Shown here: in pieces, positions 165 through 39,753 of the stretch
Layout of the letters: each line of letters begins with the position of its first letter
How positions within the stretch are numbered: the stretch's first letter is position 1
Origin: an uncultured Candidatus Saccharibacteria bacterium
Lineage (GTDB): Bacteria > Patescibacteriota > Doudnabacteria > UBA920
Assembly: GCA_964504715.1 (NCBI GenBank)
Contig: CAZDEP010000006.1
Span: forward strand, 4,748-68,747
DNA: 64,000 nt
Reading direction: 5' to 3'
Notes under the pieces: generated by a model
Database searches by the model: none
The model's input: the letters and a program-made list of their open reading frames with translations, nothing else
What the model was told of the DNA's origin: nothing
Position numbers and translations under genes: made by a program

Positions 165-1028
165 ATGGACCTATCAATCGTAATTTTATCTTTTAATTCC
201 AACTCCGACTTAGAGCGGCTGCTGCCGAGCATTTTTGCGTCCGCGGGCGAATTTTCCTATGAGGTGATTGTTGTCGATAACGGCTCAACGGACGGCACGG
301 TTGACTCGCTTCAAAGATTGAAAGATTTAAAATATAAAGATTTAAAGATTATTGCCAACCAAAATAACGGCTTTTCGCATGGAAATAATTTGGGTATAAA
401 ACAGGCCCAAGGCAAATATATTTTAATTCTTAACCCGGATACGGAGCTAAAGCCCGAAACTTTGGAGGTGATGTTGGAATTTATGGAAGCCCATTCTGAT
501 GTCGGAATTAGCACTTGCAAGGTTATGCTGCCGGACGGCCGGCTGGATTTGGCATGCAGGCGCAGGTTCCCAAATCCCTGGAACAGTTTTAAGCGATTAT
601 TCCTTTTGTCGAATCGCGATTATAATTATGCCAATGCCGATGCGGATCGGGATATAGAAATTGAGAGCTGTATGGGTGCGTTTATGTTTGCCAGAAAATC
701 TGTACTTTTGCAAGTCGAGGGGTTTGATGAAGATTTTTTTATGTACGGAGAAGATTTGGATTTATGCTGGCGGGTAAAAGAGCTGGGCTTTAAGGTTTGG
801 TATTACCCTCAAACAACCATTACGCATTACAAAGGTTCTTCTTCCAAAAAAGTCCCATACAGTGCGCTTAAGTGGTTTCATGATGCAATGTGGATTTTTT
901 ATAAAAAGCATTACGGACGTCGCTATCCTTTTTGGTTTGGGTGGATGGTGTGGCTGGGAATTTATTTTCGATTGGTCGCTTTGTGGCTAATTAGTTTTCT
1001 TCGAAAGGAAAAATTTGTAAGCAAGTGA
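165..1028 (+). CDS. Family 2 glycosyltransferase
   Basis: N-terminal GT2 fold motifs (IVILSFNS..., VIVVDNGSTDGT, DxD-like EDLD); ATG at 165 inside the track ORF 138..1028. Confidence 0.8.
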   Translation: MDLSIVILSFNSNSDLERLLPSIFASAGEFSYEVIVVDNGSTDGTVDSLQRLKDLKYKDLKIIANQNNGFSHGNNLGIKQAQGKYILILNPDTELKPETLEVMLEFMEAHSDVGISTCKVMLPDGRLDLACRRRFPNPWNSFKRLFLLSNRDYNYANADADRDIEIESCMGAFMFARKSVLLQVEGFDEDFFMYGEDLDLCWRVKELGFKVWYYPQTTITHYKGSSSKKVPYSALKWFHDAMWIFYKKHYGRRYPFWFGWMVWLGIYFRLVALWLISFLRKEKFVSK

Positions 1029-2335: not shown

Positions 2336-2411
2336 ATCACAAATACACGAATACCACCAATATCACTAATCTGATATTTGTGCAATTTGTGCAATTTGTG
2401 CATTAGTGATC
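2336..2411. repeat. Imperfect inverted repeat built from tandem 9-bp CACNAAT units (locus A)
   Basis: Left arm atcacaaat acacgaata ccaccaata tcactaat; right arm atttgtgca atttgtgca atttgtgca ttagtgatc. Arms pair at the conserved cac/aat positions of every unit. Confidence 0.8.
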
Positions 2412-2413
2412 TT

Positions 2414-4201
2414 ATGAAAATAACAGCGCAAGAGCTTAGGGAAAAATTTCTTAATTTCTTTAAGTCAAAAAAACACGCCATCATCCCTTCGGCTTCTTTA
2501 GTGCCTTCAGGAGACGCTTCGGTTTTGTTTACTACTGCTGGCATGCATCCGCTGGTGCCGTTTTTGCTTGGCCAGGAGCATCCGGCAGGGAAACGCGTAG
2601 CCAACGTCCAAAAGTGCATAAGAACAGGCGATATAGACGAAGTGGGGGACGCAACCCATCTGACTTTTTTTGAAATGATGGGCAATTGGAGCTTTGGCGA
2701 TTATTTTAAAAAAGAAGCGATTGAGTGGAGCTTTGAATTCTTGACCTCCCCTGAGTATTTAGGTTTGCCTTTGGAGCGTCTCGCTATAACCTGTTTTGCG
2801 GGCGACGAAGATGCGCCAAGGGACGAAGAATCATCCGCAATCTGGAAAGCTTTGGGTGTGCCGGAACACCGAATTAGCTTTTTGCCGAAGGAAAAAAATT
2901 GGTGGATAGCCGGCGGCAGCGGACCATGCGGCCCTGACACCGAAATGCATTACTGGATAGACGATTCCACGCCTGCGCCCAAGGAATACGACGTTAACGA
3001 ATCGCGCTGGGTGGAAATTTGGAACGATGTCTTCATGCAGTATGAAAAAAAACCCACCGGCGAATTGGTGCCGTTAAAGCAGCAAAATGTGGATACGGGC
3101 ATGGGCTTAGACAGGGTTTTGGCCGTGTTGAACGGCCAGACTTCGGTTTACGATACTGACTTGTTTAAGCCAATGTGGGAGGTAATAGGTTTGGGCAATG
3201 AAATACTGTCAAACGACGAAATAAAAAAAGCCCGGATTATTTTGGACCATATCCGCGCCGCTGTGTTTATTGTAGGGGACGGCATTGAGCCTTCCAACAA
3301 GGACCGCGGCTATGTTTTAAGACGGCTTTTAAGGCGCGCTATGGTTATGGCCAGGCTTTTGAATTTGCAGTCAACCTGGCTTAAGGCATTGGTGGGGCAG
3401 GTGATATTTACCTATTCATCGCCATATACAGAGCTACGCGATAACAATGAAAAGATTTTCAATGTAATTGAAAATGAGTATGGTAAGTTTAATACAACAC
3501 TGGAAAAAGGTTTGAAGGAGTTTGCCAGGATAAGTAAGCAGTACGCAGAGGACAGCAAGCAGTTGAATGGTAAAGATGCGTTTGATTTGTATCAAACTTA
3601 CGGTTTCCCGTGGGAATTGACCAAAGAATTGGCTGAGGCTGCGGGGCAAAAAATTGACAAGGCCCAGTTTGAAGAAGAATTTAAAAAGCACCAGGACTTG
3701 TCCAGGACAGCCAGCGCCGGGCAGTTTAAAGGCGGTTTGGCCTCTCATAGTGAAAAGATTGTCAGACTCCATACTGCCACGCATTTAATGAACGCGGCCT
3801 TAAGGCAGGTGCTGGGGGAAAATATTTGGCAAAAGGGGAGTAACATTACCGAAGAGAGGACTCGTTTTGATTTTACCCACGACAAAAAAATGACGTCTGA
3901 GGAAGTTGCGGCCGTGGAAGCTTTGGTTAACGATTGGGTGGCAAGGGACTTAAAAGTCAAACGGGAAATGATGCCCCAGGAGGCCGCGCGAGAGCTTGGA
4001 GCCATCGGCGTGTTTGGTGAAAAATACTCAGACACCGTTTCTATTTATACCGTTTTTGACGAAAAAACCGGGGAAGTCATCTCCCGCGAGTTTTGCGGCG
4101 GCCCTCACGTAGAACATACCGGCGTAATCGGCCAGTTTAAAATCCAAAAGGAAGAGGCTTCTTCCGCAGGCATTAGAAGAATTAAAGCAACAATTATATA
4201 A
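2414..4201 (+). CDS. alaS: Alanine--tRNA ligase, short form lacking the C-terminal C-Ala domain
   Basis: Class II AlaRS catalytic core (FTTAGMHPLVPF, FFEMMGNWSFGDYFK) and editing-domain HxxxH (HTATHLMNAA ... CGGPHVEHTG). The protein is about 596 aa versus about 870 aa for typical AlaRS. ATG at 2414 inside track ORF 2378..4201. Confidence 0.85.
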   Translation: MKITAQELREKFLNFFKSKKHAIIPSASLVPSGDASVLFTTAGMHPLVPFLLGQEHPAGKRVANVQKCIRTGDIDEVGDATHLTFFEMMGNWSFGDYFKKEAIEWSFEFLTSPEYLGLPLERLAITCFAGDEDAPRDEESSAIWKALGVPEHRISFLPKEKNWWIAGGSGPCGPDTEMHYWIDDSTPAPKEYDVNESRWVEIWNDVFMQYEKKPTGELVPLKQQNVDTGMGLDRVLAVLNGQTSVYDTDLFKPMWEVIGLGNEILSNDEIKKARIILDHIRAAVFIVGDGIEPSNKDRGYVLRRLLRRAMVMARLLNLQSTWLKALVGQVIFTYSSPYTELRDNNEKIFNVIENEYGKFNTTLEKGLKEFARISKQYAEDSKQLNGKDAFDLYQTYGFPWELTKELAEAAGQKIDKAQFEEEFKKHQDLSRTASAGQFKGGLASHSEKIVRLHTATHLMNAALRQVLGENIWQKGSNITEERTRFDFTHDKKMTSEEVAAVEALVNDWVARDLKVKREMMPQEAARELGAIGVFGEKYSDTVSIYTVFDEKTGEVISREFCGGPHVEHTGVIGQFKIQKEEASSAGIRRIKATII

Positions 4202-5759: not shown

Positions 5760-5789
5760 TCACGCAAATCGCCTAAAATAACGGCGGAA

Positions 5790-5893
5790 TGTCAAATCCC
5801 AAATATCAAATATCAAATGAAATCCAAATGCCAAAAGGTTAAAGTTTGCAGGTTTGGAGGTATTTGAAATTTGTCATTTGTAATTTGAAATTT
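5790..5893. repeat. Imperfect inverted repeat of tandem 7-bp CAAATNN units (locus C)
   Basis: Left arm gtcaaatcc caaatat caaatat caaatgaaatc caaatgc; right arm tttggaggt atttgaa atttgtc atttgta atttgaa attt. It directly abuts the start codon of the next gene. Confidence 0.75.
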
Positions 5894-5895
5894 TT

Positions 5896-7997: not shown

Positions 7998-8099
7998 ATC
8001 GCAAATTCACCAATACCACAAATAGCACTAATTTTTTTCAAAAATAGAGATCTGAAATTAGTATTTGTGGAATTTGTGAAATTTGTGCATTAGTGATCA
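7998..8099. repeat. Imperfect inverted repeat of 9-bp CACNAAT units (locus B)
   Basis: Left arm atcgcaaat tcaccaata ccacaaata gcactaat; right arm attagtatt tgtggaatt tgtgaaatt tgtgcatta gtgatcac. It ends 3 nt before the rpmJ ATG. Confidence 0.8.
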
Positions 8100-8102
8100 C
8101 CT

Positions 8103-8216
8103 ATGAAAGTAAGAGCATCAGTCAAGCCAATTTGTAAAAAATGCAAAGTAATAAAACGCTTTGGCAGGATTTATATTATTTGCGAAAATCCAAAGCATAA
8201 GCAGAGACAAGGCTGA
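8103..8216 (+). CDS. rpmJ: 50S ribosomal protein L36
   Basis: 37-aa [40 protein letters not shown] with the CxxC...C...H zinc ribbon; below the size cut-off of the ORF track. Confidence 0.85.
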
Positions 8217-8229
8217 TAAACTGACAAGA

Positions 8230-8275
8230 TTGACAAAATTGAACAAAAATAAACCGCAGTCAAAATTTTGTCAAT
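8230..8275 (+). promoter_or_regulatory. 11-bp inverted repeat (ttgacaaaatt / aattttgtcaa) in the rpsM leader, candidate S4 translational operator or promoter element
   Basis: Perfect 11-bp arms flanking a 22-nt loop immediately upstream of the first gene of the alpha operon. Confidence 0.35.
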
Positions 8276-8310
8276 TTAATTTAAATTTTTAAATTTTGTT
8301 CAATTAAATT

Positions 8311-8700: not shown

Positions 8701-8775
8701 TCAAAATTACAAATTAACAATATAACAAAATAACATGTTATATTGCTATCTTGTTTAATTGTTAAATTAAATTAA

Positions 8776-15559: not shown

Positions 15560-16654
15560 ATGAAAATTGCTCTTGTTCATGACTCCATTACCCAATCCGG
15601 AGGGGCGGAGAGAGTGGTGGATTGTTTGCATGAGGTTTTTCCTGAGGCTCCGGTTTATACGTTGGTGATGGATCGCAAACTGGCCGCCCGTTACGCCACT
15701 TGGGATATTCGTACTACTTGGCTTCAGCCCCTTTATAATTTTTTGCCTAAACTTCAGTACTGGCTCTTTTTTATTCCATGGGCAGTGGGCTCTATTAGAA
15801 TTAAGGATGTAGAGGTGGTGATATCGTCTTCATCGGGTTTTGCAAAGAATATTCGGGTTGCAAAAAATGTCTGCCATGTAAATTATTGCCATACGCCTTC
15901 CAGATTTTTATGGATTGATAAAGATTACATTAATCAAGAAGTTAAGTGGTTTTTTAGGCCCGGTGTTAAATTGTTCTTATGGTGGATGAAAAAATGGGAC
16001 TCCAAGGGCTCCAAAACGGTAAATATTTTCATTGCCAATTCCAAAGAAGTTCAAAAGCGGATTGCCGAGGTTTACAGTCGGGACTCGGAAGTAATTTATC
16101 CCGCTATTGATACCGATTTTTGGAAACCGACCCAAGCCAAACAAAACTATTTCCTAGTCGCAGGCCGTCTGCAGGCGCATAAGAGAATAGATTTTATAGT
16201 CGAATGTTTTAACGAGTTAAACCTGCCGCTTCATGTGGTTGGCACCGGAAGGCAGGAAAGCTATTTGAAGTCAATTTCAGGTCCCAACATTAAATTTTTA
16301 GGATACGTATCTGATGATAAATTAAGAGACGAATATAGCGGCGCAATTGCCTTTATTTATCCTCAGGTGGAAGACTTCGGCCTGATGCCCCTGGAAGCCG
16401 CTGCCTGCGGCACTCCCACCTTAGCCTTCGCCCGGGGCGGTGCTTTGGAAACGGTAATTTCGGGTGTAACCGGGGAGTTCTTTGAAAGTTACAATAAATT
16501 AAAAGTAAAAGAAATAGTTTTAGATTGGCAACAGACGAAGTATAAACAAGAGGAGTTATGGAACCAGGCTTTAAAATTTAACAAAGACGCATTTAAAAAT
16601 AAGATTCACAATTTGATTGACAGTTTACATCTTGCGCGGCCGCGCAAGATGTAA
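15560..16654 (+). CDS. GT4 family glycosyltransferase
   Basis: EDFGLMPLEAAACGTPTLAFARGGALETV (GT-B C-terminal E-x7-E motif). Confidence 0.8.
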   Translation: MKIALVHDSITQSGGAERVVDCLHEVFPEAPVYTLVMDRKLAARYATWDIRTTWLQPLYNFLPKLQYWLFFIPWAVGSIRIKDVEVVISSSSGFAKNIRVAKNVCHVNYCHTPSRFLWIDKDYINQEVKWFFRPGVKLFLWWMKKWDSKGSKTVNIFIANSKEVQKRIAEVYSRDSEVIYPAIDTDFWKPTQAKQNYFLVAGRLQAHKRIDFIVECFNELNLPLHVVGTGRQESYLKSISGPNIKFLGYVSDDKLRDEYSGAIAFIYPQVEDFGLMPLEAAACGTPTLAFARGGALETVISGVTGEFFESYNKLKVKEIVLDWQQTKYKQEELWNQALKFNKDAFKNKIHNLIDSLHLARPRKM

Positions 16655-24020: not shown

Positions 24021-24086
24021 CCCCTCAAACCTTTTGCACTACTGTACCTGCCTGCCCTGCCTACCGGCAGGCAGGCGGTAGGCAGG

Positions 24087-24195
24087 CTAGTGCCGTTTCA
24101 TTTTAATTATGTCGATTGTCAGATTTTCAAACTCCTCTAAAATAAATTAATTTAAGGGATATTGGCCGTCAGGTTTAAAATGAAACGGCACTAGT
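24087..24195. terminator. 20-bp perfect inverted repeat (ctagtgccgtttcattttaa / ttaaaatgaaacggcactag) flanking a 69-bp AT-rich loop
   Basis: Long stem-loop at the 3' end of the minus-strand trpR-like gene. Confidence 0.45.
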
Positions 24196-24209
24196 ACACT
24201 AAAACAGTC

Positions 24210-24494
24210 TTATTTGTAAAATTTTTCCAAAACCAGGCGGAAACCACCTTTTTTGTTTGCCAATTCGCGGGCGCCGCGATTAACGGTCGCCACACTCACC
24301 TTGAGCTGTGTGGCAATTTCGCGATGTGGGACCGCGGCCTGGAGCCTCTTGATGATTTGCCAGCGGACGGCCAGTTCGCGGTATTCGGCGGGTGACAGTA
24401 TATCAAATAAAAATTCCCTCATCAGAGCCTTGTCTTTGCCAATTTTGCCCACCAATCCTTCTAGTTCTGCCCCATATTCGTGTTTATATTGCAT
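24210..24494 (-). CDS. TrpR/YerC/YecD-family transcriptional regulator
   Basis: Trp-repressor-like helix-turn-helix (HREIATQLKVSVATVNRGARELANK); about 94 aa. Confidence 0.7.
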   Translation of the reverse strand: MQYKHEYGAELEGLVGKIGKDKALMREFLFDILSPAEYRELAVRWQIIKRLQAAVPHREIATQLKVSVATVNRGARELANKKGGFRLVLEKFYK

Positions 24495-24510
24495 ATTTTT
24501 TCTTTTGCTT

Positions 24511-24528
24511 TAGTGTACTAGTACACTA
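24511..24528. promoter_or_regulatory. 18-bp perfect palindrome tagtgtactagtacacta (trp-operator-like ACTAGT core) over the regulator's own promoter
   Basis: Lies 17-34 nt upstream of the regulator's start codon and overlaps a minus-strand TTGACG -35 / TAGTGT -10. Confidence 0.6.
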
Positions 24529-24594
24529 GAACATGCGGATCTTCGCGTCAACTGTGGATAATTAGATCTATTTTTTGCAATTTGGATGTTTCAG

Positions 24595-24606
24595 CGTACT
24601 AGTACG
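24595..24606. promoter_or_regulatory. 12-bp palindrome cgtactagtacg abutting a TTGACA -35 box on the + strand
   Basis: cgtactagtacg ggtg TTGACA, 17 nt, then TATGTT. Confidence 0.5.
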
Positions 24607-24941
24607 GTGTTGACAATGGGACGCAGAGAGAGTATGTTTTATTCATATGGAAAATTTGGTGGCTAAAAACAATATTGCAGTTTGGTGGGGTTTGCAGACT
24701 TTCGCAAAGCCCGGTGTTTTTAGCTGACTTTTTCAGTCTCCCGATAGTTGCTTTTAACCACCTTTTGGCTTTTTGCGAAAGGTGGTTTTGTTTTGGCTGT
24801 TTTTAACATCTCGATCAAATTTGCGTATTAGCCTGCCTGCTGGCAGGTATGCTAATGCAAATGGATGTTGTTGGCAGCCAGCACAAATCCACATGGCAGG
24901 ATAAACAAGCGTGCTGGCTTGCCTGCAAAGAAGGAGGTGCG

Positions 24942-25169
24942 ATGTACTACATCGCGCAGCAGCCGTCGCCAGTGGCGACCGCAAGACTTAAAAACGCTGG
25001 GTATGGGCGGGAAGGGGGCGAACTGGCGGCTCATCAGGTTAGCGGGAATTCTGTAACCGTGACCTTCGTTGAAACGGGTTTTTTTGGCGGCTTAACCCGT
25101 CATACAATGTCTGGCGAAGAATTTAAGCGCAACTTCGCCGTTATCCGCAACAAGAGGGCCAAACGCTAA
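24942..25169 (+). CDS. Hypothetical small protein (75 aa), higher GC than surroundings
   Basis: Strong RBS AAGGAGGTG 5 nt before the ATG at 24942; it is the internal start of track ORF 24849..25169. A near-perfect GC hairpin follows the stop. Confidence 0.35.
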   Translation: MYYIAQQPSPVATARLKNAGYGREGGELAAHQVSGNSVTVTFVETGFFGGLTRHTMSGEEFKRNFAVIRNKRAKR

Positions 25170-25212
25170 AAGCGTTTCGGCCCTCTTTCCACATCAGCAT
25201 GCACGTTTTAAC

Positions 25213-25222
25213 GTACTAGTAC
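25213..25222. promoter_or_regulatory. Third GTACTAGTAC palindrome at the right edge of the island
   Basis: acgtactagtac immediately followed by the right terminal inverted repeat. Confidence 0.45.
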
Positions 25223-25695
25223 AGTAGTGCAAAAGGCGCGGGGGTGGGGAGGGTTATGGGTATATTTACCCTTTTTAGTTTACTTGGAGCATGTAGGGAG
25301 GGTTTGTGCCCAGTTGGGTGCTTTATAGTTACTGCTTGAGAGAATGTAATTTATTGAGTTTTTAGGCTCGATAAATCGAGCGACTACAAGATCATTGGAA
25401 ATTGAAATTATAATTATAATGTTGATTGCTATTGACAGCATTGGTCGGGCTGGTATAATACAGTAAGTATGAATAAATTATCGCAAAATTTCTGGTATTT
25501 CTTTTATTTTTTTACTGGCCTGCTTGGAACCAGGAATTTTGAGTTTAATCCACAGATACACATATTGCACAGATAACACTGAACAAAGGATTCAACGTAA
25601 AACTCCCGGCTTCAAGCGAAGCCGGTTTTTTGTTTACCAATACAATATAATAGCAAACAATCCGCCGAAGCGTCTGGCGTAGGCGGGTGTTATTT

Positions 25696-25771
25696 GGGGA
25701 CGTAGTTTAGTTGGTTAGAACGCCGGCCTAAAAAACCGGAAAGGCAGGTTCGAATCCTGTTGTCCCCGCCA
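25696..25771 (+). tRNA. tRNA, isotype unresolved (anticodon loop CUAAAAA; apparent anticodon AAA)
   Basis: Cloverleaf: acceptor GGGGACG pairs with TGTCCCC (one G-U pair), D-arm with GG, T-arm GCAGG-TTCGAAT-CCTGT, encoded CCA, short variable loop. The anticodon stem has a C-A mismatch and the loop is A-rich. Confidence 0.55.
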
Positions 25772-26271: not shown

Positions 26272-29034
26272 ATGTCTTTTTTATCCAAACTATTCGGCGG
26301 TGAATCGCCCGCTATCGACAAATACCAAAAAGAACTTGACGCGGTCAATGTTTTTAAAAGTGAAGTTGAGAAATTGACACAGGAAAAAATTCAAGAAGAA
26401 GTAGCAAGTATCAAGGGTCAAGTATCAAGCTTAAAGACAAAAGAAGAAATAAAAAACAAGTTGAAAGAAGTTAGGCCACGCGTGTTTGCTTTAGTCAGGG
26501 AAGCGGCCAAAAGAACCATAGGCCAGACGCATTATGACGTGCAAATTGTCGGCGGCCTGGCTTTGTCGGACAACCGCATAGCGGAAATGAAGACCGGCGA
26601 AGGCAAAACACTCACTGCCACGCTGCCTTTAGTCTTGTATGCTTTGGCAGGCAAGGGCGCGCATTTGGTAACCGTCAACGACTATTTAGGCCGGTGGCAA
26701 GCCTCCCTTATGGGCCCGATTTTCCATTACTTGGGCTTAACTGTTTCTTCCATCCAGCATGAAGCTTCTTTTTTATATGATCCCACTTACCAACCCGAGG
26801 CGGAAGAACTCGAAAAGCTGGAAGGCCAGACCGAAGGTTTGGTAATGGATGTAAAGCACATGAGGCCGATTGCGAGAAAAGAGGCCTATGCTTCCGACAT
26901 AACTTACGGCACCAACAACGAATTCGGTTTTGATTATTTGCGGGACAATATGGCCCAGCGGGCCCAAAGCATGGTCCAAAGGCCTTTGTTTTTTGCCATT
27001 GTCGACGAAGTTGACTCAATTTTAATTGACGAAGCCAGGACGCCGCTTATAATTAGCGCGCCCGATACAGACCCGACTGACAAGTACGTGCAGTTTGCAA
27101 AGCTGGTTGGTCAGCTAAACGAAGGCGAGCACTATTCCGTAGACGAAAAACACAAAGCCGCGAGTTTGACCGATTCCGGCATTAACAAAATTGAAGAAAT
27201 TTTGCGCGTGCCCAATATTTACGACACGAGCAAGGGCGTGACCACCATCCACCACATAGAGCAGGCTTTGCGTGCCAAAACTTTGTTTAAAATTGACCGC
27301 GACTACGTAACGCGCAACGGGGAAATAGTGATTGTGGACGAATTCACCGGCAGGCTCATGTTTGGCCGGAGGTATTCCGAAGGCCTTCACCAGGCCATAG
27401 AAGCCAAGGAGGGAGTAAAAATCCAAGCCGAAAGCAAAACTCTTGCCACTATTACTTTTCAAAATTTGTTTCGCCTTTACGATTTTTTGTCCGGTATGAC
27501 AGGTACGGCTAAAACCGAAGAGGAAGAATTTTTCAAAATTTACCGCCTGCAGGTGGAAATTATCCCCACTAACCGGCCGATGGTAAGGAACGATGCGGCC
27601 GATGTGGTCTATAAAACCGAAAAAGCAAAATTTGAAGCCATTGCCAAAGAAGTCGCACTTAGGCATAAAAAAGGCCAGCCGATTTTGATTGGCACGGTCA
27701 GCATTGCCAAGAACGAACTTTTGGCCGATGAACTTAAAAAACAGGGCTTAAGTTTTGAGCTTTTAAATGCCAAAAACCACGAACGTGAAGCGCATATTAT
27801 TGCCCAGGCAGGACGGCTTGGAGCCATTACTTTGGCTACCAACATAGCCGGTCGCGGCGTGGACATTCTTTTGGGCGGAAATCCCATTGACCAGGAGGAA
27901 GCCAAAGCTGTGCGTGAGGCAGGCGGCCTGCACGTTTTGGGGACCGAGCGGCATGAATCTCGTAGGATCGACAACCAGCTTAGGGGCCGCGCAGGACGCC
28001 AGGGCGACCCGGGTTCTTCGCAGTTTTTCGTTTCCATGGAAGACGACCTCATGAGGCTTTTCGGCGGCGAACGGATGAAATCCCTCATGACGACTTTAGG
28101 CATACCCGACGACCAGCCCATAGAAGCCAAAATGGTTTCCCGCTCCATTGAATCGGCGCAAAAAAAGATTGAAGGCCTAAATTTTGACACCCGCAAGCAC
28201 GTCTTGGAATTCGACGATGTATTAAACCATCAACGCAATATTATTTATAAAATTCGCAGGCGCTATTTGCCCGGCTATGAACCGAAAGTGGACGAAGCCG
28301 GCCAACCGTTTGACCTTAAAAAAGAAATTTTGGAAATTGCGCGTGAGGAAGTAAGTAATTTGGTATTGAGTATACTTAATGCCGAAGTTCCGTCCGAAAA
28401 TAAGGCTTCCCAGGTTGACGAAGTAATTAAAGCGCTTGGGTCAATTTTTACAGTCCCCGAAGAGCTTAAAAGTAAAATTAAGGACGAATTTCCAAACGCC
28501 GCGGACAGGGAATTTGCCATAACGGATGCAACTCTGGTGGAACTGGAAAAATTCTGGGATGCAAAGGCGCAAGAATTCACGAAAGAAGGCTTTGAAAGCG
28601 TGGCACAGTATATAGCACTTCAAAATTTGGACGCCTTATGGATGGAGCACTTGGATACCATGGACCATCTGCGCGACAGCGTAAGGCTTCGCGGCTACGG
28701 TCAAAGGGACCCGTTGGTGGAATACAAAAAGGAAGGCTTTGGCATGTTCCAGAGGCTGGTGAAGGAAATAAACCGGCAAATAGTCTTTACAATTTTCAAA
28801 GTTAATATTCAAGTTAATCCAAATGTCCCTGCTCAGGAAGTCCAAATGGTGACAAATAGGACAGATACGACAAATACGTCGAATAGGACCAATGAGAATG
28901 TCGGCCGCAACGATCCCTGCCCATGCGGCAGCGGGAAAAAGTGGAAGAAATGCGGAATGCAAAATACCCAGGAACACCAAATAAATATGGCCAAAGGCAC
29001 CAGTCAAAAGCATGCGGCCAAGGTGGGAGGGTAG
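26272..29034 (+). CDS. secA: Preprotein translocase ATPase SecA
   Basis: DEAD-like motor motifs (MKTGEGKTLTATLP, TVNDYL), helical scaffold, and C-terminal SEC-C zinc finger CPCGSGKKWKKCG. Confidence 0.95.
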   Translation: MSFLSKLFGGESPAIDKYQKELDAVNVFKSEVEKLTQEKIQEEVASIKGQVSSLKTKEEIKNKLKEVRPRVFALVREAAKRTIGQTHYDVQIVGGLALSDNRIAEMKTGEGKTLTATLPLVLYALAGKGAHLVTVNDYLGRWQASLMGPIFHYLGLTVSSIQHEASFLYDPTYQPEAEELEKLEGQTEGLVMDVKHMRPIARKEAYASDITYGTNNEFGFDYLRDNMAQRAQSMVQRPLFFAIVDEVDSILIDEARTPLIISAPDTDPTDKYVQFAKLVGQLNEGEHYSVDEKHKAASLTDSGINKIEEILRVPNIYDTSKGVTTIHHIEQALRAKTLFKIDRDYVTRNGEIVIVDEFTGRLMFGRRYSEGLHQAIEAKEGVKIQAESKTLATITFQNLFRLYDFLSGMTGTAKTEEEEFFKIYRLQVEIIPTNRPMVRNDAADVVYKTEKAKFEAIAKEVALRHKKGQPILIGTVSIAKNELLADELKKQGLSFELLNAKNHEREAHIIAQAGRLGAITLATNIAGRGVDILLGGNPIDQEEAKAVREAGGLHVLGTERHESRRIDNQLRGRAGRQGDPGSSQFFVSMEDDLMRLFGGERMKSLMTTLGIPDDQPIEAKMVSRSIESAQKKIEGLNFDTRKHVLEFDDVLNHQRNIIYKIRRRYLPGYEPKVDEAGQPFDLKKEILEIAREEVSNLVLSILNAEVPSENKASQVDEVIKALGSIFTVPEELKSKIKDEFPNAADREFAITDATLVELEKFWDAKAQEFTKEGFESVAQYIALQNLDALWMEHLDTMDHLRDSVRLRGYGQRDPLVEYKKEGFGMFQRLVKEINRQIVFTIFKVNIQVNPNVPAQEVQMVTNRTDTTNTSNRTNENVGRNDPCPCGSGKKWKKCGMQNTQEHQINMAKGTSQKHAAKVGG
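26395..26430 (+). repeat. In-frame 7-bp periodic CAAGTAT repeat inside secA (encodes EEVASIKGQVSSLK)
   Basis: gaagtag CAAGtat CAAGggt CAAGtat CAAGc; a near-identical DNA segment occurs in pepN at 31513-31554. Confidence 0.6.
28843..28895 (+). repeat. In-frame 9-bp periodic ACAAATAGG-type repeat inside secA, just before the zinc finger (encodes QMVTNRTDTTNTSNRTNEN)
   Basis: caaatggtg acaaatagg acagatacg acaaatacg tcgaatagg accaatgag. It nearly matches the left arm of intergenic locus A (acaaatac acgaatacc accaatat). Confidence 0.65.
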
Positions 29035-29271
29035 CTATAAAAATGCCCGGACAATAATATGGAAAAATATACTATCGAAATTGAAACTTCAGCGGGCTGG
29101 ATACAATATCACAGCATTATGCGGCCGGGACAAGAGAGAGCTAAAATAATCCTTAAAGAATTACAGGATAAGTTTCCCAGTTCAAAATTTAGAATTGTGG
29201 TGTGGGAGGGGAAAGAAATTTAGAAATTTAAATTAACATAAATCTTTAATCTTAAATTTAATATCTAATTT

Positions 29272-31332: not shown

Positions 31333-33900
31333 ATGAAAAATATCAAAAAACAATCCGTACGTTTATCTGCTTTCATTAAACCCGAAAACTACAAGCTCCT
31401 TATCAAACCTGATTTGGAGGGTTTTACGTTTGAGGGGGAAGAGACAATATCAATTAAGCTGGAAAAGTCCGTAGCATCTATAACACTGCACGCAAAGGAG
31501 CTCGACATATCCGAAGTAGAGTATCAAGTAGCAAGAATCAAGTATCAAGCAAGGGAGATAAAATACGACAATAAGTCGGAAACAGCAACTTTCATTTTTG
31601 CCCGTAATTTGCCAAAGGGCAGGGGGGCCTTGAATTTAAAATTCAAGGGCATATTGAATGACCATATGCGCGGGTTTTACCGCAGCCGGTACCTTCACAA
31701 CGGCAAGGAAAAACATTTGGCCACCACCCAATTTGAGGCCACGGACGCCAGAAGGGCTTTCCCGTGTTTTGACGAGCCCGCGCAAAAGGCGATTTTTGAC
31801 ATAACGGTAATGGTGCCGCCCGGCCTGACGGCCATATCTAACACCGTGGAATCGAAAATTACCGAACACGAATCCGGCTATAAAGTGGTGGAGTTTGCCC
31901 CCACGCCTAAAATGTCCACATACTTGGTGGCTTTTATAGTAGGCGATTTCGAATTTATTGAAGGCAAGACCAAGTCGGGGACAGCAGTGAGGGTTTTTGT
32001 GACGCCGGGGAAAAAGCACCAGGCCAAATTTGCTTTGGAGTGCGCAATAAAAACTTTGGAATTTTACAATAAGTATTTTGATATTCCCTATCCCTTGCCG
32101 ATTCTTGACCTGATTGCCATTCCGGATTTTAGCCATGGCGCCATGGAAAATTGGGGCGCGGTAACTTACCGCGAATCCGCGCTTTTGGTTGATCCCGAAA
32201 ATTCTTCCGCTGCCAACAAACAATGGGTGGCGCTTGTAATTGCCCACGAACTCGCGCACCAATGGTTCGGTAATTTGGTCACCATGCAGTGGTGGACGGA
32301 TTTGTGGCTGAATGAAGGTTTTGCATCTTATATTGAATACCTGGCAGTCGACCACTTGTTTCCTTCTTGGGATATTTGGACTCAGTTTGCTTACAACGAT
32401 TTGGGCATAGCGTTAAAACTGGACGCGCTTAAATCCACCCACCCAATTGAAGTTGAGGTTAGGCACCCCGACGAAATCGGCGAAATTTTTGACGAAGTCA
32501 GCTATTCAAAAGGTGCCAGCGTAATCCGCATGCTGGCCAATTACCTGGGCGAACGTGATTTTATGGACGGCTTAAGGCATTATTTAAAAAAACATGCCTA
32601 TCAAAATACGCGGACAGTGGATTTGTGGCGGGCGTTTGAAAGAATTTCCAAAAAACCGGTGAGCAAAATTATGAAGAATTGGACGGGCAAACCCGGCTAC
32701 CCGCTTATTAAAGTTATCCAAAAACCGCGGGGGATAGGGCTTGCCCAATCCCGCTTTTTTTCTTCGCCGCTTTCTAAAAAACAGGCTAAAGACAAGACGC
32801 TTTGGGATATCCCGGTAAAAATTTCGAATGACAAATTACAAATTTCAAATGAGATCTTAAAAGCCAAATCACAAACCCTCACAAAGCCCCAGGGCCAAAT
32901 GTTTAAGCTCAACTTTGGCGAGTCTTCCCTGGTGCGCGTAGATTACCCGGCGCAACTTTTGCAAAAGCTTCATGGGCCGATTAAAAGCAAAAAGCTCCCG
33001 GCTCTGGACCGTTTAGGCTTAATCCGCGACGCCTTTGCTTTGGCCGAAAGCGGGGATTTGCCTTCTGCCCAGGCTTTGGAGCTTGCCATGCATTATATTA
33101 ATGAAAATGACTATACCGTTTGGCTGGAGCTTGTTTCAGGCCTTCATTCGGTTGATAATTTGCTGGCCGGGCAAAATTTCCAAAGCCAATTCCGGCATTT
33201 TGCAGTCGGTTTGCTTAAACAGATGCTAAAAAATGTGGGATGGAAAGCTCAGGCCAATGAACCGCACACCAAGAGCCTTTTAAGGAGCCTTATTTTAAGT
33301 GCCAGCGGCAACTTTAAAAATCCGGAAGTAATTCTGGAAGCAAAAAATAGGTTTGACGGGTGGATGCGGAAAAATAAAAAAATCACCCCTGATTTAAGAG
33401 GTGTGGTTTACTCAGTTGCTGCGGAAAACGGCGGACATAAAGAACATAGTTTTTTAATCAATGCTTACAAAACAGAAGCCCTGCACGAAGAAAAAAACCG
33501 CATTGGCCGCGCTTTGGGCCTGTTTAATTCCGAGGCTTTGGTAAAAAAAACCTTGGAATTTGCTTTGTCGGAAGGCGTTAGGCCACAGGATACGCCGGGA
33601 ATTTTCCTTTCCTGCTGGCAAAACCAAAACCAGAGGGCTCAAGTCTGGAAGTTTACTAAGCAGCACTGGCAAGAGCTTTTAAAGCGCTACCCGTCGTCTG
33701 GCCATATGCTTAACCGTTTTATAAAACCCGCCGGTCTTTTTGCGGACAAAGCCCGGGCAAAAGAAGTTGGTAATTTTTTCAAAGCCCATAAGGCGCCGGG
33801 GGCACAAAGGGCAATTGAACAAGTCGTAGAAAAAATTCTTTCCAATGCCGAATGGCTGGGAAGGGACGGGGGGAAAATACAAAATTGGCTAATGCAGTAA
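31333..33900 (+). CDS. pepN: Aminopeptidase N (M1 family zinc metallopeptidase)
   Basis: GAMENWGAVTYRE and HELAHQWFGNLVTMQWWTDLWLNEGFA (HEXXH-18-E). Confidence 0.9.
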   Translation: MKNIKKQSVRLSAFIKPENYKLLIKPDLEGFTFEGEETISIKLEKSVASITLHAKELDISEVEYQVARIKYQAREIKYDNKSETATFIFARNLPKGRGALNLKFKGILNDHMRGFYRSRYLHNGKEKHLATTQFEATDARRAFPCFDEPAQKAIFDITVMVPPGLTAISNTVESKITEHESGYKVVEFAPTPKMSTYLVAFIVGDFEFIEGKTKSGTAVRVFVTPGKKHQAKFALECAIKTLEFYNKYFDIPYPLPILDLIAIPDFSHGAMENWGAVTYRESALLVDPENSSAANKQWVALVIAHELAHQWFGNLVTMQWWTDLWLNEGFASYIEYLAVDHLFPSWDIWTQFAYNDLGIALKLDALKSTHPIEVEVRHPDEIGEIFDEVSYSKGASVIRMLANYLGERDFMDGLRHYLKKHAYQNTRTVDLWRAFERISKKPVSKIMKNWTGKPGYPLIKVIQKPRGIGLAQSRFFSSPLSKKQAKDKTLWDIPVKISNDKLQISNEILKAKSQTLTKPQGQMFKLNFGESSLVRVDYPAQLLQKLHGPIKSKKLPALDRLGLIRDAFALAESGDLPSAQALELAMHYINENDYTVWLELVSGLHSVDNLLAGQNFQSQFRHFAVGLLKQMLKNVGWKAQANEPHTKSLLRSLILSASGNFKNPEVILEAKNRFDGWMRKNKKITPDLRGVVYSVAAENGGHKEHSFLINAYKTEALHEEKNRIGRALGLFNSEALVKKTLEFALSEGVRPQDTPGIFLSCWQNQNQRAQVWKFTKQHWQELLKRYPSSGHMLNRFIKPAGLFADKARAKEVGNFFKAHKAPGAQRAIEQVVEKILSNAEWLGRDGGKIQNWLMQ
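31513..31554 (+). repeat. In-frame CAAGTAT repeat inside pepN (encodes EVEYQVARIKYQAREIKY)
   Basis: gaagtag agtat CAAGtag CAAGaat CAAGtat CAAG CAAGg; shares gaagtag and caagtatcaagc with the secA copy. Confidence 0.6.
32821..32880 (+). repeat. In-frame CAAAT-family repeat inside pepN (encodes ISNDKLQISNEILKAKSQ)
   Basis: atttcgaatgacaaattacaaatttcaaatgag ... gccaaatcacaaaccctcacaaag; same units as the intergenic arrays. Confidence 0.55.
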
Positions 33901-33910
33901 CGGCCGGAAA

Positions 33911-33960
33911 TACCAAATGACAAATGACAAATCCCAATTAAATTCCAAAATCAAAATTTT
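33911..33960 (+). repeat. CAAAT-family repeat spanning the start codon of the L,D-transpeptidase gene (encodes MTNDKSQLNSKIKILK)
   Basis: ccaaatgacaaatgacaaatcccaattaaattccaaaatcaaaatttt. Confidence 0.55.
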
Positions 33961-34597
33961 AAAGCCTCGGCCGCAAGCAGGGCGCAGTTTAAAAAATCGT
34001 TTGATTTACCGGCTGGCGTGGTGCTTGTTTGCAGCCGTGTTAATTTTGGCAAGTCCGCTGCAATTTGCTCTCGCACAGGAAAATACCGACTCGGACGCCG
34101 ACGGTTTGTCAGATTACCTGGAAATAAATATTTACCGGACCGACCCTAAGCGCGCGGACACTGACGGGGACGGTTATATTGACGGCGTGGAGATTGAAAA
34201 TTCTTACGATCCGAATAAGCCTTACGACGACAAAATTTCAAAAGTCATCGGCGTCAGTTTAAAAGACCAAACGCTCACTTATTCTTTGGGACCCTATATT
34301 TTAAAAACTATTTTTATATCTTCCGGCCTGTCCTCCACCCCGACTCCGCCGGGAGAATACGCGGTAGAAAAAAAGCTGCCTTTGGTAACCTACCGCGGCC
34401 GCAACTATTATTATCCAAATACCAAATGGAATATGCTGTTTAAAAGCGGCTCAAAAGGCGGGTATTATATTCATGGCGCTTATTGGCATAATAATTTTGG
34501 CAAACCCATGAGCCATGGCTGCATTAACGTTTCTTATACAGAAATGCAGCCCCTTTACGAATGGGCCGATGTGGGCACAAGGCTAATAATTGAATAG
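33917..34597 (+). CDS. L,D-transpeptidase (YkuD domain) with N-terminal calcium-binding-like D-x-D repeats
   Basis: Catalytic HG...SHGC (YYIHGAYWHNNFGKPMSHGCINV) and DSDADGLSDY ... DTDGDGYIDGVE. Confidence 0.8.
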   Translation: MTNDKSQLNSKIKILKPRPQAGRSLKNRLIYRLAWCLFAAVLILASPLQFALAQENTDSDADGLSDYLEINIYRTDPKRADTDGDGYIDGVEIENSYDPNKPYDDKISKVIGVSLKDQTLTYSLGPYILKTIFISSGLSSTPTPPGEYAVEKKLPLVTYRGRNYYYPNTKWNMLFKSGSKGGYYIHGAYWHNNFGKPMSHGCINVSYTEMQPLYEWADVGTRLIIE

Positions 34598-39649: not shown

Positions 39650-39753
39650 GCTTTGCATATCTCTACGAAATACTAAAACTCTTATATAATCATTGTTATT
39701 TAATTTATTTCGTATTTAGTATTTCGTCCCTTTAGTATTTAGTAGAAGAACCT

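What the first reader, a model, noticed from the sequence alone, without database searches (positions are those of the whole stretch)
28843..28895. The same repeat family is inserted in-frame inside secA, pepN and the L,D-transpeptidase start (RPE-like behaviour)
Inside secA, the DNA at 28843-28895 is caaatggtg acaaatagg acagatacg acaaatacg tcgaatagg accaatgag. It encodes QMVTNRTDTTNTSNRTNEN in the variable linker just before the SEC-C zinc finger. This is almost the same nucleotide sequence as the left arm of intergenic locus A (acaaatac acgaatacc accaatat).

Inside pepN, 32821-32880 (atttcgaatgacaaattacaaatttcaaatgag...ccaaatcacaaac) encodes ISNDKLQISNE...KSQ. The L,D-transpeptidase gene begins inside another copy at 33917-33960 (atgacaaatgacaaatcccaattaaattccaaaatcaaaatttt, encoding MTNDKSQLNSKIKILK).

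So three unrelated proteins acquire near-identical (T/S)NDK(S/L)Q-type peptides from one DNA repeat, and the reading frame is preserved each time. In-frame colonisation of housekeeping genes by a short palindromic repeat is known mainly from Rickettsia RPEs. Seeing it here points to an active or recently active small repeat element that tolerates, or is selected for, insertion into surface loops of proteins.
Basis: partly seen in the sequence, partly recalled or inferred. Interest (0 to 1): 0.75.

Follow-up and report, generated by a model that had tools for sequence, protein, structure and literature searches.

The report
Short tandem repeats inside housekeeping genes
The repeat-like stretches in secA, pepN and the L,D-transpeptidase gene are short tandem DNA repeats (7- or 9-base units) that formed in place, not an inserted palindromic mobile element, but 7-base arrays of this kind turn up unexpectedly often, in frame, inside essential genes of this bacterial group.

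Summary
The window comes from a Candidatus Doudnabacteria (CPR/Patescibacteria) genome. The RPE-like reading fails.

- **secA and pepN are not insertions.** They are no longer than orthologs, or than B. subtilis SecA and human PSA.
- **No coding copy has a palindromic partner.**
- **The secA tract is a 9-nt array.** Its first units are shared, with synonymous changes, by a 76%-identical ortholog. The T/N-rich peptide alone explains its likeness to intergenic locus A (P=0.24).
- **pepN and ldt carry 7-nt arrays.** The pepN array encodes a well-ordered β-hairpin. The ldt array lies in a lineage-specific N-terminal extension.

A DNA-level repeat process is nonetheless real.

- Heptamer arrays in this window's CDS number 3, against 0.01 expected.
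- At one pepN site, 9 of 11 orthologs keep a 7-nt period while the unit sequence differs and the alignment stays gapless.
- Exact (ATTTCAA)4, which encodes ISNFKFQISN, sits inside LeuRS, LigA, UvrD, RecJ, PBP and NuoN domains in metagenome contigs.

Best reading: simple-sequence (heptamer/nonamer) arrays arise by slippage or templated copying and persist where the encoded peptide is tolerated.

The parts
28851..28893 (+). secA C-terminal linker: imperfect 9-nt tandem array (ACAAATAGG ACAGATACG ACAAATACG TCGAATAGG ACCAATGAG) encoding TNR TDT TNT SNR TNE, just before the SEC-C zinc finger.
   Evidence: TRF period 9, 4.8 copies. Translation; Pfam SEC-C at aa 879-894. First units are shared with L081 with synonymous changes. 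The last two units differ from the closest relative L093 by substitutions only. No hairpin, z = -0.62.
32820..32852 (+). pepN (M1 peptidase) domain III: 7-nt tandem array (ATTTCGA ATGACAA ATTACAA ATTTCAA ATGA) encoding ISNDKLQISNE.
   Evidence: TRF period 7. Lag-7 match 18/26 against 12.2 expected from synonymous recoding, P=0.005. Gapless against close orthologs, several of which carry their own heptamer unit at this site. No insertion against human PSA 8SW0. Maps to β-hairpin E493-499/E504-509, pLDDT about 90.
33905..33941 (+). pepN-ldt junction: 7-nt array (ACCAAAT GACAAAT GACAAAT CCCAAT) that contains the ldt start codon at 33917 and encodes MTNDKSQL.
   Evidence: TRF 33914-33932, period 7; lag-7 array 33905-33941. 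Orthologous Ldts start 4-9 codons later at M-x-K-I-[QK]-I-L. The ATG of L083 aligns to the window's AAT/ATT. The window's Ldt N-terminus is 28 aa longer than that of the closest relative L093. Not palindromic, P=0.06.
26399..26429 (+). secA N-terminal helix: 7-nt array (AAGTAGC AAGTATC AAGGGTC AAGTATC AAG) encoding VASIKGQVSS.
   Evidence: TRF period 7. Lag-7 match 19/26 against 6.3 expected, P<0.0002. At the same gapless site, L081, L086 and L087 carry ATTTCAA-type arrays encoding ISNFKLQISK. Aligns residue for residue with B. subtilis IEFKERL.
31519..31552 (+). pepN N-terminal domain: 7-nt array (GAGTATC AAGTAGC AAGAATC AAGTATC AAGCAA) encoding EYQVARIKYQA. It uses the same unit as the secA N-terminal array.
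   Evidence: TRF period 7/14. Lag-7 match 21/32 against 11.0 expected, P<0.0002. 9 of 11 orthologs have lag 7 as best period at this site, with different units. Maps to the tip of β-hairpin E58-66/E69-79.
313..350 (+). Putative glycosyltransferase gene, ORF 138-1028 (function inferred by reading the translation, not tested): 8-nt array (AAAGATTT x4.9) encoding RLKDLKYKDLKI.
   Evidence: TRF score 55. Translation. Lag-8 match 23/31 against 13.7 expected, P<0.0002.
2337..2415 (+). Intergenic 'locus A': a hairpin. The left arm has CACAAAT/CACGAAT/CACCAAT/CACTAAT units and the right arm is (ATTTGTGCA)x3. It fills the spacer up to the next ATG.
   Evidence: Sequence. TRF 2376-2402, period 9. Fold z = -3.83. 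Arm complementarity P<0.001.
5786..5895 (+). Intergenic hairpin. The left arm is a (xCAAATx) heptamer array and the right arm is an (ATTTGxx) array. It contains the exact ATTTGTCATT = AATGACAAAT unit shared with pepN and ldt.
   Evidence: Sequence. TRF period 7 on both arms. Fold z = -2.33. Arm complementarity P=0.001. 10-mer search.
8000..8105 (+). Intergenic hairpin between infA and rpmJ (gene names inferred by reading the sequence and ribosomal-operon context, not tested), of the same 9-nt family as locus A.
   Evidence: Sequence. Inverted repeat I7. Fold z = -4.45. Arm complementarity P=0.001.
39650..39753 (+). Intergenic array/hairpin (TATTTAG x5) that is absent from the closest relative. 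It shows recent turnover of intergenic arrays.
   Evidence: TRF 39706-39744. Fold. L093 has a 19-nt spacer at the orthologous junction.

Best explanation
The three tracts are simple-sequence tandem arrays that arose in place. They are not copies of an inserted palindromic element. secA has a 9-nt unit; pepN and the ldt start have 7-nt units.

They belong to the same oligonucleotide-repeat class (A-rich, CAAAT core, 7-9 nt units) that builds the two arms of the intergenic hairpins in this Candidatus Doudnabacteria genome.

**Proposed mechanism (inferred).** Slipped-strand or template-switch copying between neighbouring units makes a stretch progressively more repeat-like. In essential genes, only outcomes that keep the reading frame and roughly the length survive. 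The result looks like a patch overwritten by substitutions.

**Where arrays persist (shown).** They sit where the encoded peptide is tolerated:
- the variable SecA linker before the zinc finger;
- β-hairpins of PepN;
- the cytoplasmic N-terminal tail of Ldt, where the start codon has moved upstream into an array-containing leader.

**Why unrelated proteins share peptides (shown).** A 7-nt unit is read in all three frames. One unit therefore always gives the same cyclic heptapeptide: (ATTTCAA)n gives ISNFKFQ, and the window's variants give ISNDKLQ and TNDKSQL.
For: **Not insertions.**
- secA linker: window and L081 share T-N-R-T-D-T-T-N-T-(S/T)-N with synonymous differences, on the family motif NLVTN[LR][ST]DG.
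- The closest relative L093 has zero indels across the whole gene. This patch is the most divergent 45-nt window of the gene: 19 mismatches against a mean of 5.6.
- The linker is 8 aa shorter than in B. subtilis SecA.
- The pepN tract is gapless against close orthologs, and the region is shorter than in human PSA.

**The DNA-level repeat is real.**
- Periodicity exceeds synonymous-recoding expectation: P=0.0002 (secA, lag 9), 0.005 (pepN mid), <0.0002 (secA N-terminal, pepN N-terminal, the 8-nt array at 313-350).
- Lag-7 arrays in the window's CDS: 3 against 0.01 expected under codon shuffling.
- TRF arrays in CDS: 26 against 9.8 ± 3.0.

**The period is conserved but the unit is not.**
- At the pepN N-terminal site, 9 of 11 orthologs have lag 7 as best period, with at least four unrelated units. 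P is about 3e-13, or 5e-7 on a conservative count.

**Structural tolerance.**
- Both pepN arrays map to β-hairpins in a model with mean pLDDT 90.

**The same class occurs elsewhere.**
- CPR loci: 10 lag-7 arrays in CDS against 0 expected. Non-CPR loci: 3 against 0.65.
- Exact (ATTTCAA)4 lies inside Pfam domains of LeuRS, LigA, UvrD, RecJ, PBP, CobQ, CCA-adding enzyme, MiaA and NuoN.

**Prior literature.**
- Over-representation of heptamer simple-sequence repeats in bacteria, and a polymerase-slippage explanation, are already published (PMC4692102 and PMC4679880, both citing Mrazek et al. 2007).
Against: - Slippage by one 7-nt unit causes a frameshift. The length-preserving pattern therefore needs a conversion-like or double event that I infer but did not observe.
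- No copy-number polymorphism (±7 or ±21 nt) was seen in any coding array among the relatives I compared.
- Perfect AT-rich (ATTTCAA)4 arrays inside genes of 55-61% GC contigs are hard to obtain by local drift. They suggest either an import or templating mechanism, or selection for the motif itself.
- A conserved 7-nt period with a changing unit could equally reflect a constraint at the nucleic-acid level.
- The secA tract taken alone is adequately explained as an ordinary T/N/S-rich low-complexity linker (P=0.24).
- The CPR/non-CPR split rests on record titles and my own judgement.
Confidence: 0.6

Rival explanations
1. RPE/MITE-like element. A short palindromic mobile repeat inserted in frame into secA, pepN and ldt, adding a peptide at surface loops.
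For: - The coding tracts share units with the intergenic hairpins.
- The Ldt N-terminus is a true lineage-specific gain of 28 aa.
- Intergenic copies show presence/absence between close relatives.
- Some metagenome arrays coincide with net insertions: LigA +21 aa and UvrD +6 aa.
Against: - secA and pepN show no length gain against close or distant homologs.
- Coding copies have no second arm and no fold signal.
- The tracts are 30-45 nt, against about 150 bp for RPEs (PMC10969869).
- There is no family consensus: secA shares only an 8-mer with the other two.
- The secA tract is shared with a 76%-identical ortholog through synonymous changes.
- No terminal inverted repeats were found at the ldt tract, the one coding copy tested (P=0.06); target-site duplications were not searched for.
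Confidence: 0.05
2. No DNA-level process. The tracts are ancestral peptide segments (low-complexity linker, β-hairpins) encoded with AT-rich codons, and the resemblance to intergenic repeats comes from composition.
For: - The secA/locus A similarity is reproduced by synonymous recoding (P=0.24), and L081's secA tract scores 13 against the window's own locus A.
- The sites are homologous residue by residue to B. subtilis SecA and human PSA.
- The ldt lag-7 signal is weak (P=0.15).
Against: - Protein-level selection cannot create a 7-nt period.
- Recoding tests reject this reading for pepN mid (P=0.005), pepN N-terminal and secA N-terminal (P<0.0002).
- The CDS-wide excess is 3 against 0.01.
- An exact 14-nt x2 duplication sits in L083 pepN.
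- Exact 28-nt arrays lie in many unrelated genes, including 55-61% GC contigs.
Confidence: 0.12
3. A selected nucleic-acid signal. The 7-nt arrays, in leaders, in hairpin arms and inside 5' parts of ORFs, are binding or phasing sites for a factor that reads heptamers on single-stranded RNA or DNA (for example a cold-shock or S1-like OB-fold protein). Selection would then keep the period rather than the sequence.
For: - The period is conserved while the unit changes at the same site in 9 of 11 orthologs.
- Arrays lie directly upstream of start codons and inside ribosomal-protein operons, as do the TAACTGA heptamer repeats for which a translational role was proposed.
- CspB is reported to bind one protein per heptamer (PMC4679880).
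- Identical (ATTTCAA)4 arrays occur across contigs of 0.29-0.66 GC overall, and inside verified genes of 55-61% GC contigs.
Against: - No factor is identified and no expression or binding data exist.
- Units differ widely (TATCAAG, TAAGAAG, CGAAT-type, AAATTTC), so no single sequence-specific reader fits.
- Persistent intra-array homogenisation explains the same pattern without invoking function.
Confidence: 0.18

Closest known systems
Long simple-sequence repeats of the heptamer class in bacteria. These include cyanobacterial heptamer repeats, GGGAATC in Xanthomonas, and TAACTGA in Beggiatoaceae, Cyanobacteria and Bacteroidetes.
   Same: - Head-to-tail 7-nt units, typically about four copies.
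- Abundant in particular lineages.
- Mostly intergenic, often inside ribosomal-protein operons and just upstream of start codons.
- Sometimes arranged as inverted pairs that can form stem-loops.
- Rapid turnover between relatives.

(PMC4692102, PMC4679880; window.)
   Different: - The organism is a CPR bacterium and the unit core is CAAAT/ATTTCAA.
- The arrays are also embedded in frame in conserved domains of housekeeping genes, with length preserved and the period conserved across orthologs.
[quoted passage not shown] The few in-ORF cases lie in small hypothetical ORFs or in a second β'-like gene.
Rickettsia palindromic elements (RPEs) and other intragenic MITEs
   Same: A repeat shared by intergenic DNA and unrelated housekeeping ORFs, read in frame, giving similar peptides in unrelated proteins.
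   Different: RPEs are about 150 bp. They fall into defined families with a conserved encoded peptide, and they are insertions relative to orthologs (PMC10969869; that they are palindromic rests on my own knowledge). Here the tracts are 30-45 nt tandem arrays with no second arm and no family consensus, and two of the three show no length gain.
Cryptic simplicity / slippage-driven low-complexity regions in coding sequence (Tautz, Trick and Dover concept; Asn-rich tracts in AT-rich genomes). Cited from my own knowledge, not checked in a paper here.
   Same: Local over-representation of short motifs generated by slippage-like copying and tolerated in variable protein segments. The secA T/N/S-rich linker fits this directly.
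   Different: The usual coding examples have triplet-compatible units and vary in length. Here the dominant unit is 7 nt, the length is conserved, and two arrays lie in ordered β-hairpins rather than in disordered regions.
Tandem repeats in Borg extrachromosomal elements
   Same: DNA tandem repeats arise de novo inside ORFs and create new peptide segments (PMC9879509, listed).
   Different: From the abstract, Borg repeats are recently formed, rapidly evolving tandem direct repeats that create new intrinsically disordered regions; that they are perfect, multi-copy and have unit lengths divisible by three inside ORFs is from my own knowledge. The arrays here are short, mostly 7-nt, often degenerate, and replace existing structure rather than extending it.

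Membership tests
Rickettsia palindromic element (RPE) / intragenic MITE | Discrete element of about 100-150 bp | tested here: not met
   The coding tracts span 43 nt (secA), 33 nt (pepN) and 37 nt (ldt). RPE size is taken from PMC10969869.
Rickettsia palindromic element (RPE) / intragenic MITE | Palindromic / terminal inverted repeats able to form a hairpin | tested here: not met
   Fold z-scores are -0.62, +0.20 and -1.24 for the coding regions, against -2.3 to -4.5 for four of the five intergenic hairpins tested (the fifth, 8210-8312, gave -0.81). The inverted-repeat score at ldt gives P=0.06, against ≤0.001 for intergenic loci.
Rickettsia palindromic element (RPE) / intragenic MITE | Insertion relative to orthologs (presence/absence with length gain) | tested here: not met
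   secA has zero indels against L093, shares the tract with L081, and has a shorter linker than B. subtilis. pepN is gapless against close orthologs, and the region is shorter than in human PSA. Only Ldt shows a length gain (+28 aa N-terminal).
Rickettsia palindromic element (RPE) / intragenic MITE | Multi-copy family with a consensus sequence and a conserved encoded peptide | tested here: not met
   Pairwise local scores among the three tracts are 8, 9 and 19. secA shares only TGACAAAT with the others. The peptides are TNRTDTTNT (secA) and ISNDKLQ/TNDKSQL (pepN/ldt).
Long simple-sequence repeats (5-11 nt units; heptamer class) | Head-to-tail tandem copies of a short unit | tested here: met
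   TRF periods of 7 and 9 with 2.7-4.8 copies; lag analysis.
Long simple-sequence repeats (5-11 nt units; heptamer class) | More or longer arrays than expected from composition | tested here: met
   CDS lag-7 arrays: 3 against 0.01 under codon shuffling. TRF arrays: 26 against 9.8 ± 3.0. CPR loci: 10 against 0.
Long simple-sequence repeats (5-11 nt units; heptamer class) | Copy-number change in unit-length steps between relatives | tested here: inconclusive
   No ±7 or ±21 nt differences appear at the coding arrays among up to 12 orthologs. Intergenic arrays show whole presence/absence between the window and L093.
Long simple-sequence repeats (5-11 nt units; heptamer class) | Predominantly intergenic, under-represented in coding regions | tested here: not met
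   In this window, 3 of 9 lag-7 arrays lie within CDS and a fourth overlaps the ldt start codon. In the metagenome scan, 60 of 80 exact (ATTTCAA)4 arrays lie in stop-free stretches of at least 150 aa, and 10 of 10 checked lie inside Pfam domain envelopes or, for CobQ, between two adjacent domains.
Cryptic simplicity / low-complexity coding tract | Located in a variable, structurally permissive segment | tested here: met
   The secA linker is hypervariable in length and sequence across 45 and 70 homologs. The Ldt tract is a variable N-terminal tail. The pepN sites are the most variable stretches between conserved anchors, although they fold as β-hairpins.

The most novel reading that the evidence does not exclude
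CPR/Patescibacteria, and some other heptamer-rich lineages, have a process that overwrites short stretches of essential genes with 7-nt tandem arrays while keeping frame and length. The commonest array is (ATTTCAA)n, which encodes ISNFKFQ. The process then maintains the 7-nt period over long times while the unit drifts. That implies either a templated patch-conversion mechanism not yet described for bacteria, or selection on a heptamer-phased nucleic-acid signal inside coding regions.
Probability: 0.3. Interest if true: 0.8.

Novelty: new variant of a known kind. Interest (0 to 1): 0.5.

Why it matters
Simple-sequence repeats whose unit is not a multiple of three are expected to be purged from essential genes. 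Here they sit in conserved domains of SecA, an M1 peptidase and, elsewhere, LeuRS, LigA, UvrD, RecJ and PBPs. The alignments are gapless and the 7-nt period is conserved across orthologs.

If this is general, a mutational process, or a nucleic-acid-level constraint, is writing protein sequence in reduced genomes. That would have three consequences.

- It would explain recurrent 'ISNFKFQ'-type peptides in CPR proteomes.
- It would affect alignment-based phylogeny and ortholog annotation in these lineages.
- It would offer a tractable test of template-switch mutagenesis in bacteria.

For this specific finding, the practical result is negative: there is no RPE-like mobile element here.

Tried and rejected
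- **RPE/MITE insertion.** Rejected by ortholog and PDB alignments, fold tests and the lack of a family consensus.
- **secA derived from locus A DNA.** Rejected. Synonymous recodings of the same peptide score as high (P=0.24), and L081's secA tract matches the window's locus A nearly as well.
- **Hairpin spanning the ldt start (33901-34014).** RNAfold draws a long-range stem, but z = -1.24 and arm complementarity gives P=0.06. Rejected.
- **Known RNA families.** Rfam finds only RNase P and two tRNAs in the window, and nothing at the repeats.
- **'One native unit + three units = 21 nt' in-frame expansion as the general origin.** Insertion sizes at array sites were 0, -1, +1, +6 and +21 aa, not consistently multiples of 7. 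The window's SecA is +7 aa against B. subtilis near the N-terminal array, which is suggestive only.
- **Genome-contig scan with SecA.** It returned only relatives of 53% identity or less. Closer relatives had to come from the protein database and contig look-ups.
- **Literature.** No paper in the held library links CPR to simple-sequence repeats or mentions ISNFKFQ-type peptides. Mrazek et al. 2007 itself is not held.
- **Assembly artefact.** Considered and judged unlikely. The same arrays occur at the same sites in independent assemblies (L130/L173 LeuRS, L158/L172 PBP, L090/L092 PepN), and the ORFs stay in frame across them.

Full report
**What is at the coordinates.** The window is a CPR/Patescibacteria fragment. 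Nearly all genes lie on the + strand and GC is about 44%. The closest named SecA and PepN homologs are from Candidatus Doudnabacteria.

- ORF 26272-29034 is SecA.
- ORF 31333-33900 is an M1 aminopeptidase.
- ORF 33917-34597 is a YkuD L,D-transpeptidase.

Tandem Repeats Finder calls each as a short tandem array:

| Tract | Coordinates | Period | Copies |
|---|---|---|---|
| secA | 28851-28893 | 9 | 4.8 |
| pepN | 32819-32850 | 7 | 4.6 |
| ldt start | 33914-33932 | 7 | 2.7 |

**Is the likeness to the intergenic repeats more than chance?** The intergenic elements are hairpins whose two arms are themselves tandem arrays.

- Locus A (2337-2415) and 8000-8105 have 9-nt units: CAC[AGCT]AAT on the left and ATTTGTG on the right.
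- 5786-5895 has 7-nt units.
- Four of the five elements tested fold significantly (z = -2.3 to -4.5; 8210-8312 does not, z = -0.81), and the arms of the three tested are complementary (P≤0.001).

Against 5962 coding windows, the secA tract is the best match to the locus A arm (15 against 5.6 ± 1.3). The pepN tract is the best match to the 5786 arm (23-24 against 6.2 ± 1.7). The exact 10-mer AATGACAAAT occurs only in the 5786 hairpin, in pepN and twice at the ldt start.

Recoding the same peptides with this genome's codon usage reproduces the secA similarity (mean 12.8, P=0.24). It does not reproduce the pepN similarity (P=0.0075), and ldt is borderline (P=0.03). The three coding tracts are not one family: secA shares only an 8-mer with the other two.

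**secA.**
- Across 45 SecAs from diverse genomes, and 70 close homologs, the stretch between the scaffold domain and GRNDPCPC is hypervariable. The window's version is among the shortest.
- It is 8 aa shorter than the B. subtilis linker.
- Doudnabacteria-like SecAs share NLVTN[LR][ST]DG at this position.
- L081 (76% identical) reads ACC AAT AGG ACT GAT ACG ACG AAT ACG ACG AAT. This is the same T-N-R-T-D-T-T-N-T-T-N with synonymous third-position differences.
- The closest relative, L093, is 94.6% identical at the protein level and 87.6% at the nucleotide level, with no indel in 2763 nt.
- L093 has TDT-APR-ADR-PNE where the window has TDT-TNT-SNR-TNE. This is the most divergent 45-nt window of the whole gene, with 19 mismatches against a mean of 5.6.
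- With L081 and the family consensus (…ADPKYQ…) as outgroups, TNT is ancestral in the window. SNRT is a window-specific, substitution-only change that extends the 9-nt array.

The tract is therefore old, is not an insertion, and has no second arm (z = -0.62).

**pepN.**
- The tract aligns without gaps to close orthologs, and the region is 6 aa shorter than in human puromycin-sensitive aminopeptidase.
- In an AlphaFold model (55-sequence alignment, mean pLDDT 90.4) it forms the β-hairpin E493-499/E504-509 of domain III.
- Its 7-nt periodicity exceeds what the peptide dictates (18/26 against 12.2, P=0.005).
- Orthologs carry their own heptamer at the same site:

| Locus | Heptamer unit | Peptide |
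|---|---|---|
| L083 | ATTTCAA | ISNFKFQISS |
| L081 | AATCCAA | ISKSKIQNPS |
| L090 | GT[GT]AAAA | VKSEKLKVKS |
| L091 | GT[GT]ACAA | VTSDKLQVTS |

**ldt.**
- Orthologous Ldts begin M-x-K-I-[QK]-I-L and run straight into the membrane helix.
- The window keeps AAA ATC AAA ATT TTA (KIKIL) but has AAT/ATT where L083 has ATG.
- Its ORF therefore starts nine codons upstream, at an ATG inside the (CAAATGA) array.
- Compared with L093, the N-terminal region is 28 aa longer, and the genes no longer overlap.

This is a real lineage-specific gain. It is a start-codon shift into an array-containing leader plus extra sequence, and it is not a palindromic element (P=0.06).

**What lies beyond the finding's coordinates.**
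- secA and pepN each carry a second 7-nt array near the 5' end (26399-26429 and 31519-31552). Both use the unit CAAGTAT, and both are far more periodic than their peptides require (P<0.0002).
- A putative glycosyltransferase gene (ORF 138-1028; function inferred from its translation, not tested) has an 8-nt array at 313-350.
- In 48 kb of CDS, lag-7 arrays number 3 against 0.01 expected under codon shuffling. TRF arrays number 26 against 9.8 ± 3.0 (three of the 26 are ORF-overlap artefacts).
- At the pepN N-terminal site, 9 of 11 orthologs have 7 as the best period in a gapless alignment. The units are unrelated: TATCAAG, TAAGAAG, xxCGAAT, GGAATT-type, AGTTAAG, AAATTTC. The background frequency of such a signal is 2.6%, giving P about 3e-13, or 5e-7 when only four independent unit types are counted.
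- That site is the tip of β-hairpin E58-66/E69-79 and is 1 aa shorter than in human PSA.
- The secA N-terminal site aligns residue for residue with IEFKERL of B. subtilis SecA. In L081, L086 and L087 it reads ISNFKLQISK, encoded by ATTTCAA-type units.
- ISNFKFQ is simply (ATTTCAA)n read in three frames. It recurs at the PepN N-terminal site in many homologs.

**Generality.**
- In 27 CPR or likely-CPR loci, CDS hold 10 lag-7 arrays against 0 expected. In 53 other loci they hold 3 against 0.65, and there the triplet-compatible lags 6 and 9 dominate. The grouping was made by record title and is rough.
- Of the 80 contigs fetched, 60 carry the array inside a stop-free stretch of at least 150 aa.
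- In 10 of 10 cases checked, the array lies within a Pfam domain envelope or, for CobQ, between two adjacent domains. The proteins are LeuRS, LigA, UvrD, RecJ, PBP transpeptidase, CobQ, CCA-adding enzyme, MiaA and a NuoN-like protein from a 61% GC contig.
- Independent assemblies show the same array at the same site (L130/L173, L158/L172, L090/L092), which argues against an artefact.
- Against solved homologs, the net length change at array sites is +1 aa (LeuRS), +6 aa (UvrD) and +21 aa (LigA).
- Many of these contigs are dense in heptamer arrays of varied units, about 33 per 100 kb overall.
- Between the window and L093, intergenic arrays and hairpins are gained or lost. For example, 39650-39753 corresponds to a 19-nt spacer in L093.

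**Interpretation.** The evidence favours simple-sequence arrays over a mobile element.

Shown:
- The arrays are tandem and more frequent than chance.
- They share a unit class with the intergenic hairpin arms.
- They preserve length in secA and pepN.
- They are placed in structurally tolerant segments.

Inferred:
- They arise and are homogenised by slippage or template-switch copying between adjacent units.
- Selection removes frame-breaking outcomes.

Two facts keep other readings open. One is the conserved 7-nt period with a changing unit. The other is the presence of perfect AT-rich arrays inside genes of high-GC genomes. A selected heptamer-phased signal, or an undescribed patch-conversion mechanism, is not excluded.

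**Comparison with known systems.**
- The nearest known kind is the heptamer class of long simple-sequence repeats. These are reported as over-represented in many bacteria and attributed to polymerase slippage. They are typically intergenic, lie within ribosomal-protein operons and just upstream of start codons, and sometimes occur as inverted pairs (PMC4692102 and PMC4679880).
- The difference here is the in-frame, length-preserving presence in conserved housekeeping domains of CPR genomes. I found no description of this in the held literature.
- RPEs (about 150 bp; defined families; true insertions; PMC10969869; palindromic by name and from my own knowledge) resemble these tracts only in outcome. 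Four defining features were tested and none was met.

**Verdict.** The RPE-like interpretation is not supported for secA and pepN, and holds only loosely for ldt. The underlying idea, that a DNA repeat process writes similar peptides into unrelated proteins, does hold. It appears to be a lineage-wide feature worth a genome-scale test.

Noticed in passing
window 25696-25771 (+): A tRNA that ARAGORN calls tRNA-Phe with anticodon AAA (Rfam tRNA, 62 bits). The anticodon arm reads CCGGC-CTAAAAA-ACCGG with a C·A closing mismatch, or alternatively has a 9-nt loop. The discriminator base is G and CCA is encoded. An A34 AAA anticodon is very unusual in bacteria. The region is 90% conserved in the closest relative L093.
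   Followed up: partly
window 2337-2415, 5786-5895, 8000-8105, 8218-8300, 8700-8775: Intergenic spacers in the ribosomal-protein/translation gene cluster are filled almost end to end by hairpins whose arms are 7-9 nt tandem arrays. The 3' arm runs right up to the next ATG (for example gcattagtgatcttATG), leaving no obvious Shine-Dalgarno sequence.
   Followed up: partly
window 24021-25507: About 1.5 kb with no counterpart in the closest relative L093. It contains long perfect inverted repeats (24087-24106/24175-24194, 20 nt, 100% complementary), GC-rich palindromes and small ORFs on both strands.
   Followed up: no
window 29035-29230: A 200-nt segment with a 54-codon ORF (29059-29223) sits between secA and the next gene. 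It is absent in L093, where the two genes are about 40 nt apart. It ends in an AGAAATTT x2 repeat.
   Followed up: no
window 28938-29031 (SecA aa 890-920): SecA continues beyond the SEC-C zinc finger with CGMQNTQEHQINMAKGTSQKHAAKVGG. A tail ending in KH[QEA]AKVGG recurs in many Doudnabacteria-like SecAs but is missing in others, which end at KKCHGK.
   Followed up: no
window 26272-26520 (SecA aa 1-80): The region after the N-terminal heptamer array is exactly 7 aa longer than in B. subtilis SecA (1TF2). All eight Doudnabacteria orthologs share this length. One 21-nt (three-unit) expansion would give 7 aa.
   Followed up: partly
window 13535-13943 (-): A bacterial class A RNase P RNA lies on the minus strand in an otherwise + strand region (108 bits; gathering threshold 100).
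   Followed up: no
L095 2-2047 (-) and L173 7378-10320 (-): Metagenomic LeuRS genes that carry (ATTTCAA)4 arrays also have a NUDIX domain embedded after the editing domain (Pfam PF00293, 8e-11 and 1e-9). L173 has a further insertion of about 31 aa, of ISND/ISNE/NSNDKNSKQ-type low complexity, at the site where L095 has its array.
   Followed up: no
L149 327-369; L100 and L103 around the array: Contigs of 60-61% GC carry perfect AT-rich (ATTTCAA)4. In L149 it lies in frame inside a NuoN-like gene (Pfam Proton_antipo_M). In L100 and L103 it forms the left arm of intergenic hairpins, one of them just upstream of an ORF beginning MLMPKRVKFRK, which I read as rplP (L16; not tested).
   Followed up: partly
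L083 672-711, 1336-1361/1470-1519, 9103-9139, 16111-16201: A relative's arrays favour a CGAAT core instead of CAAAT. This holds both in its intergenic hairpins and in its pepN N-terminal coding array, which is an exact 14-nt x2 repeat. It hints that unit flavour may be genome-specific.
   Followed up: partly
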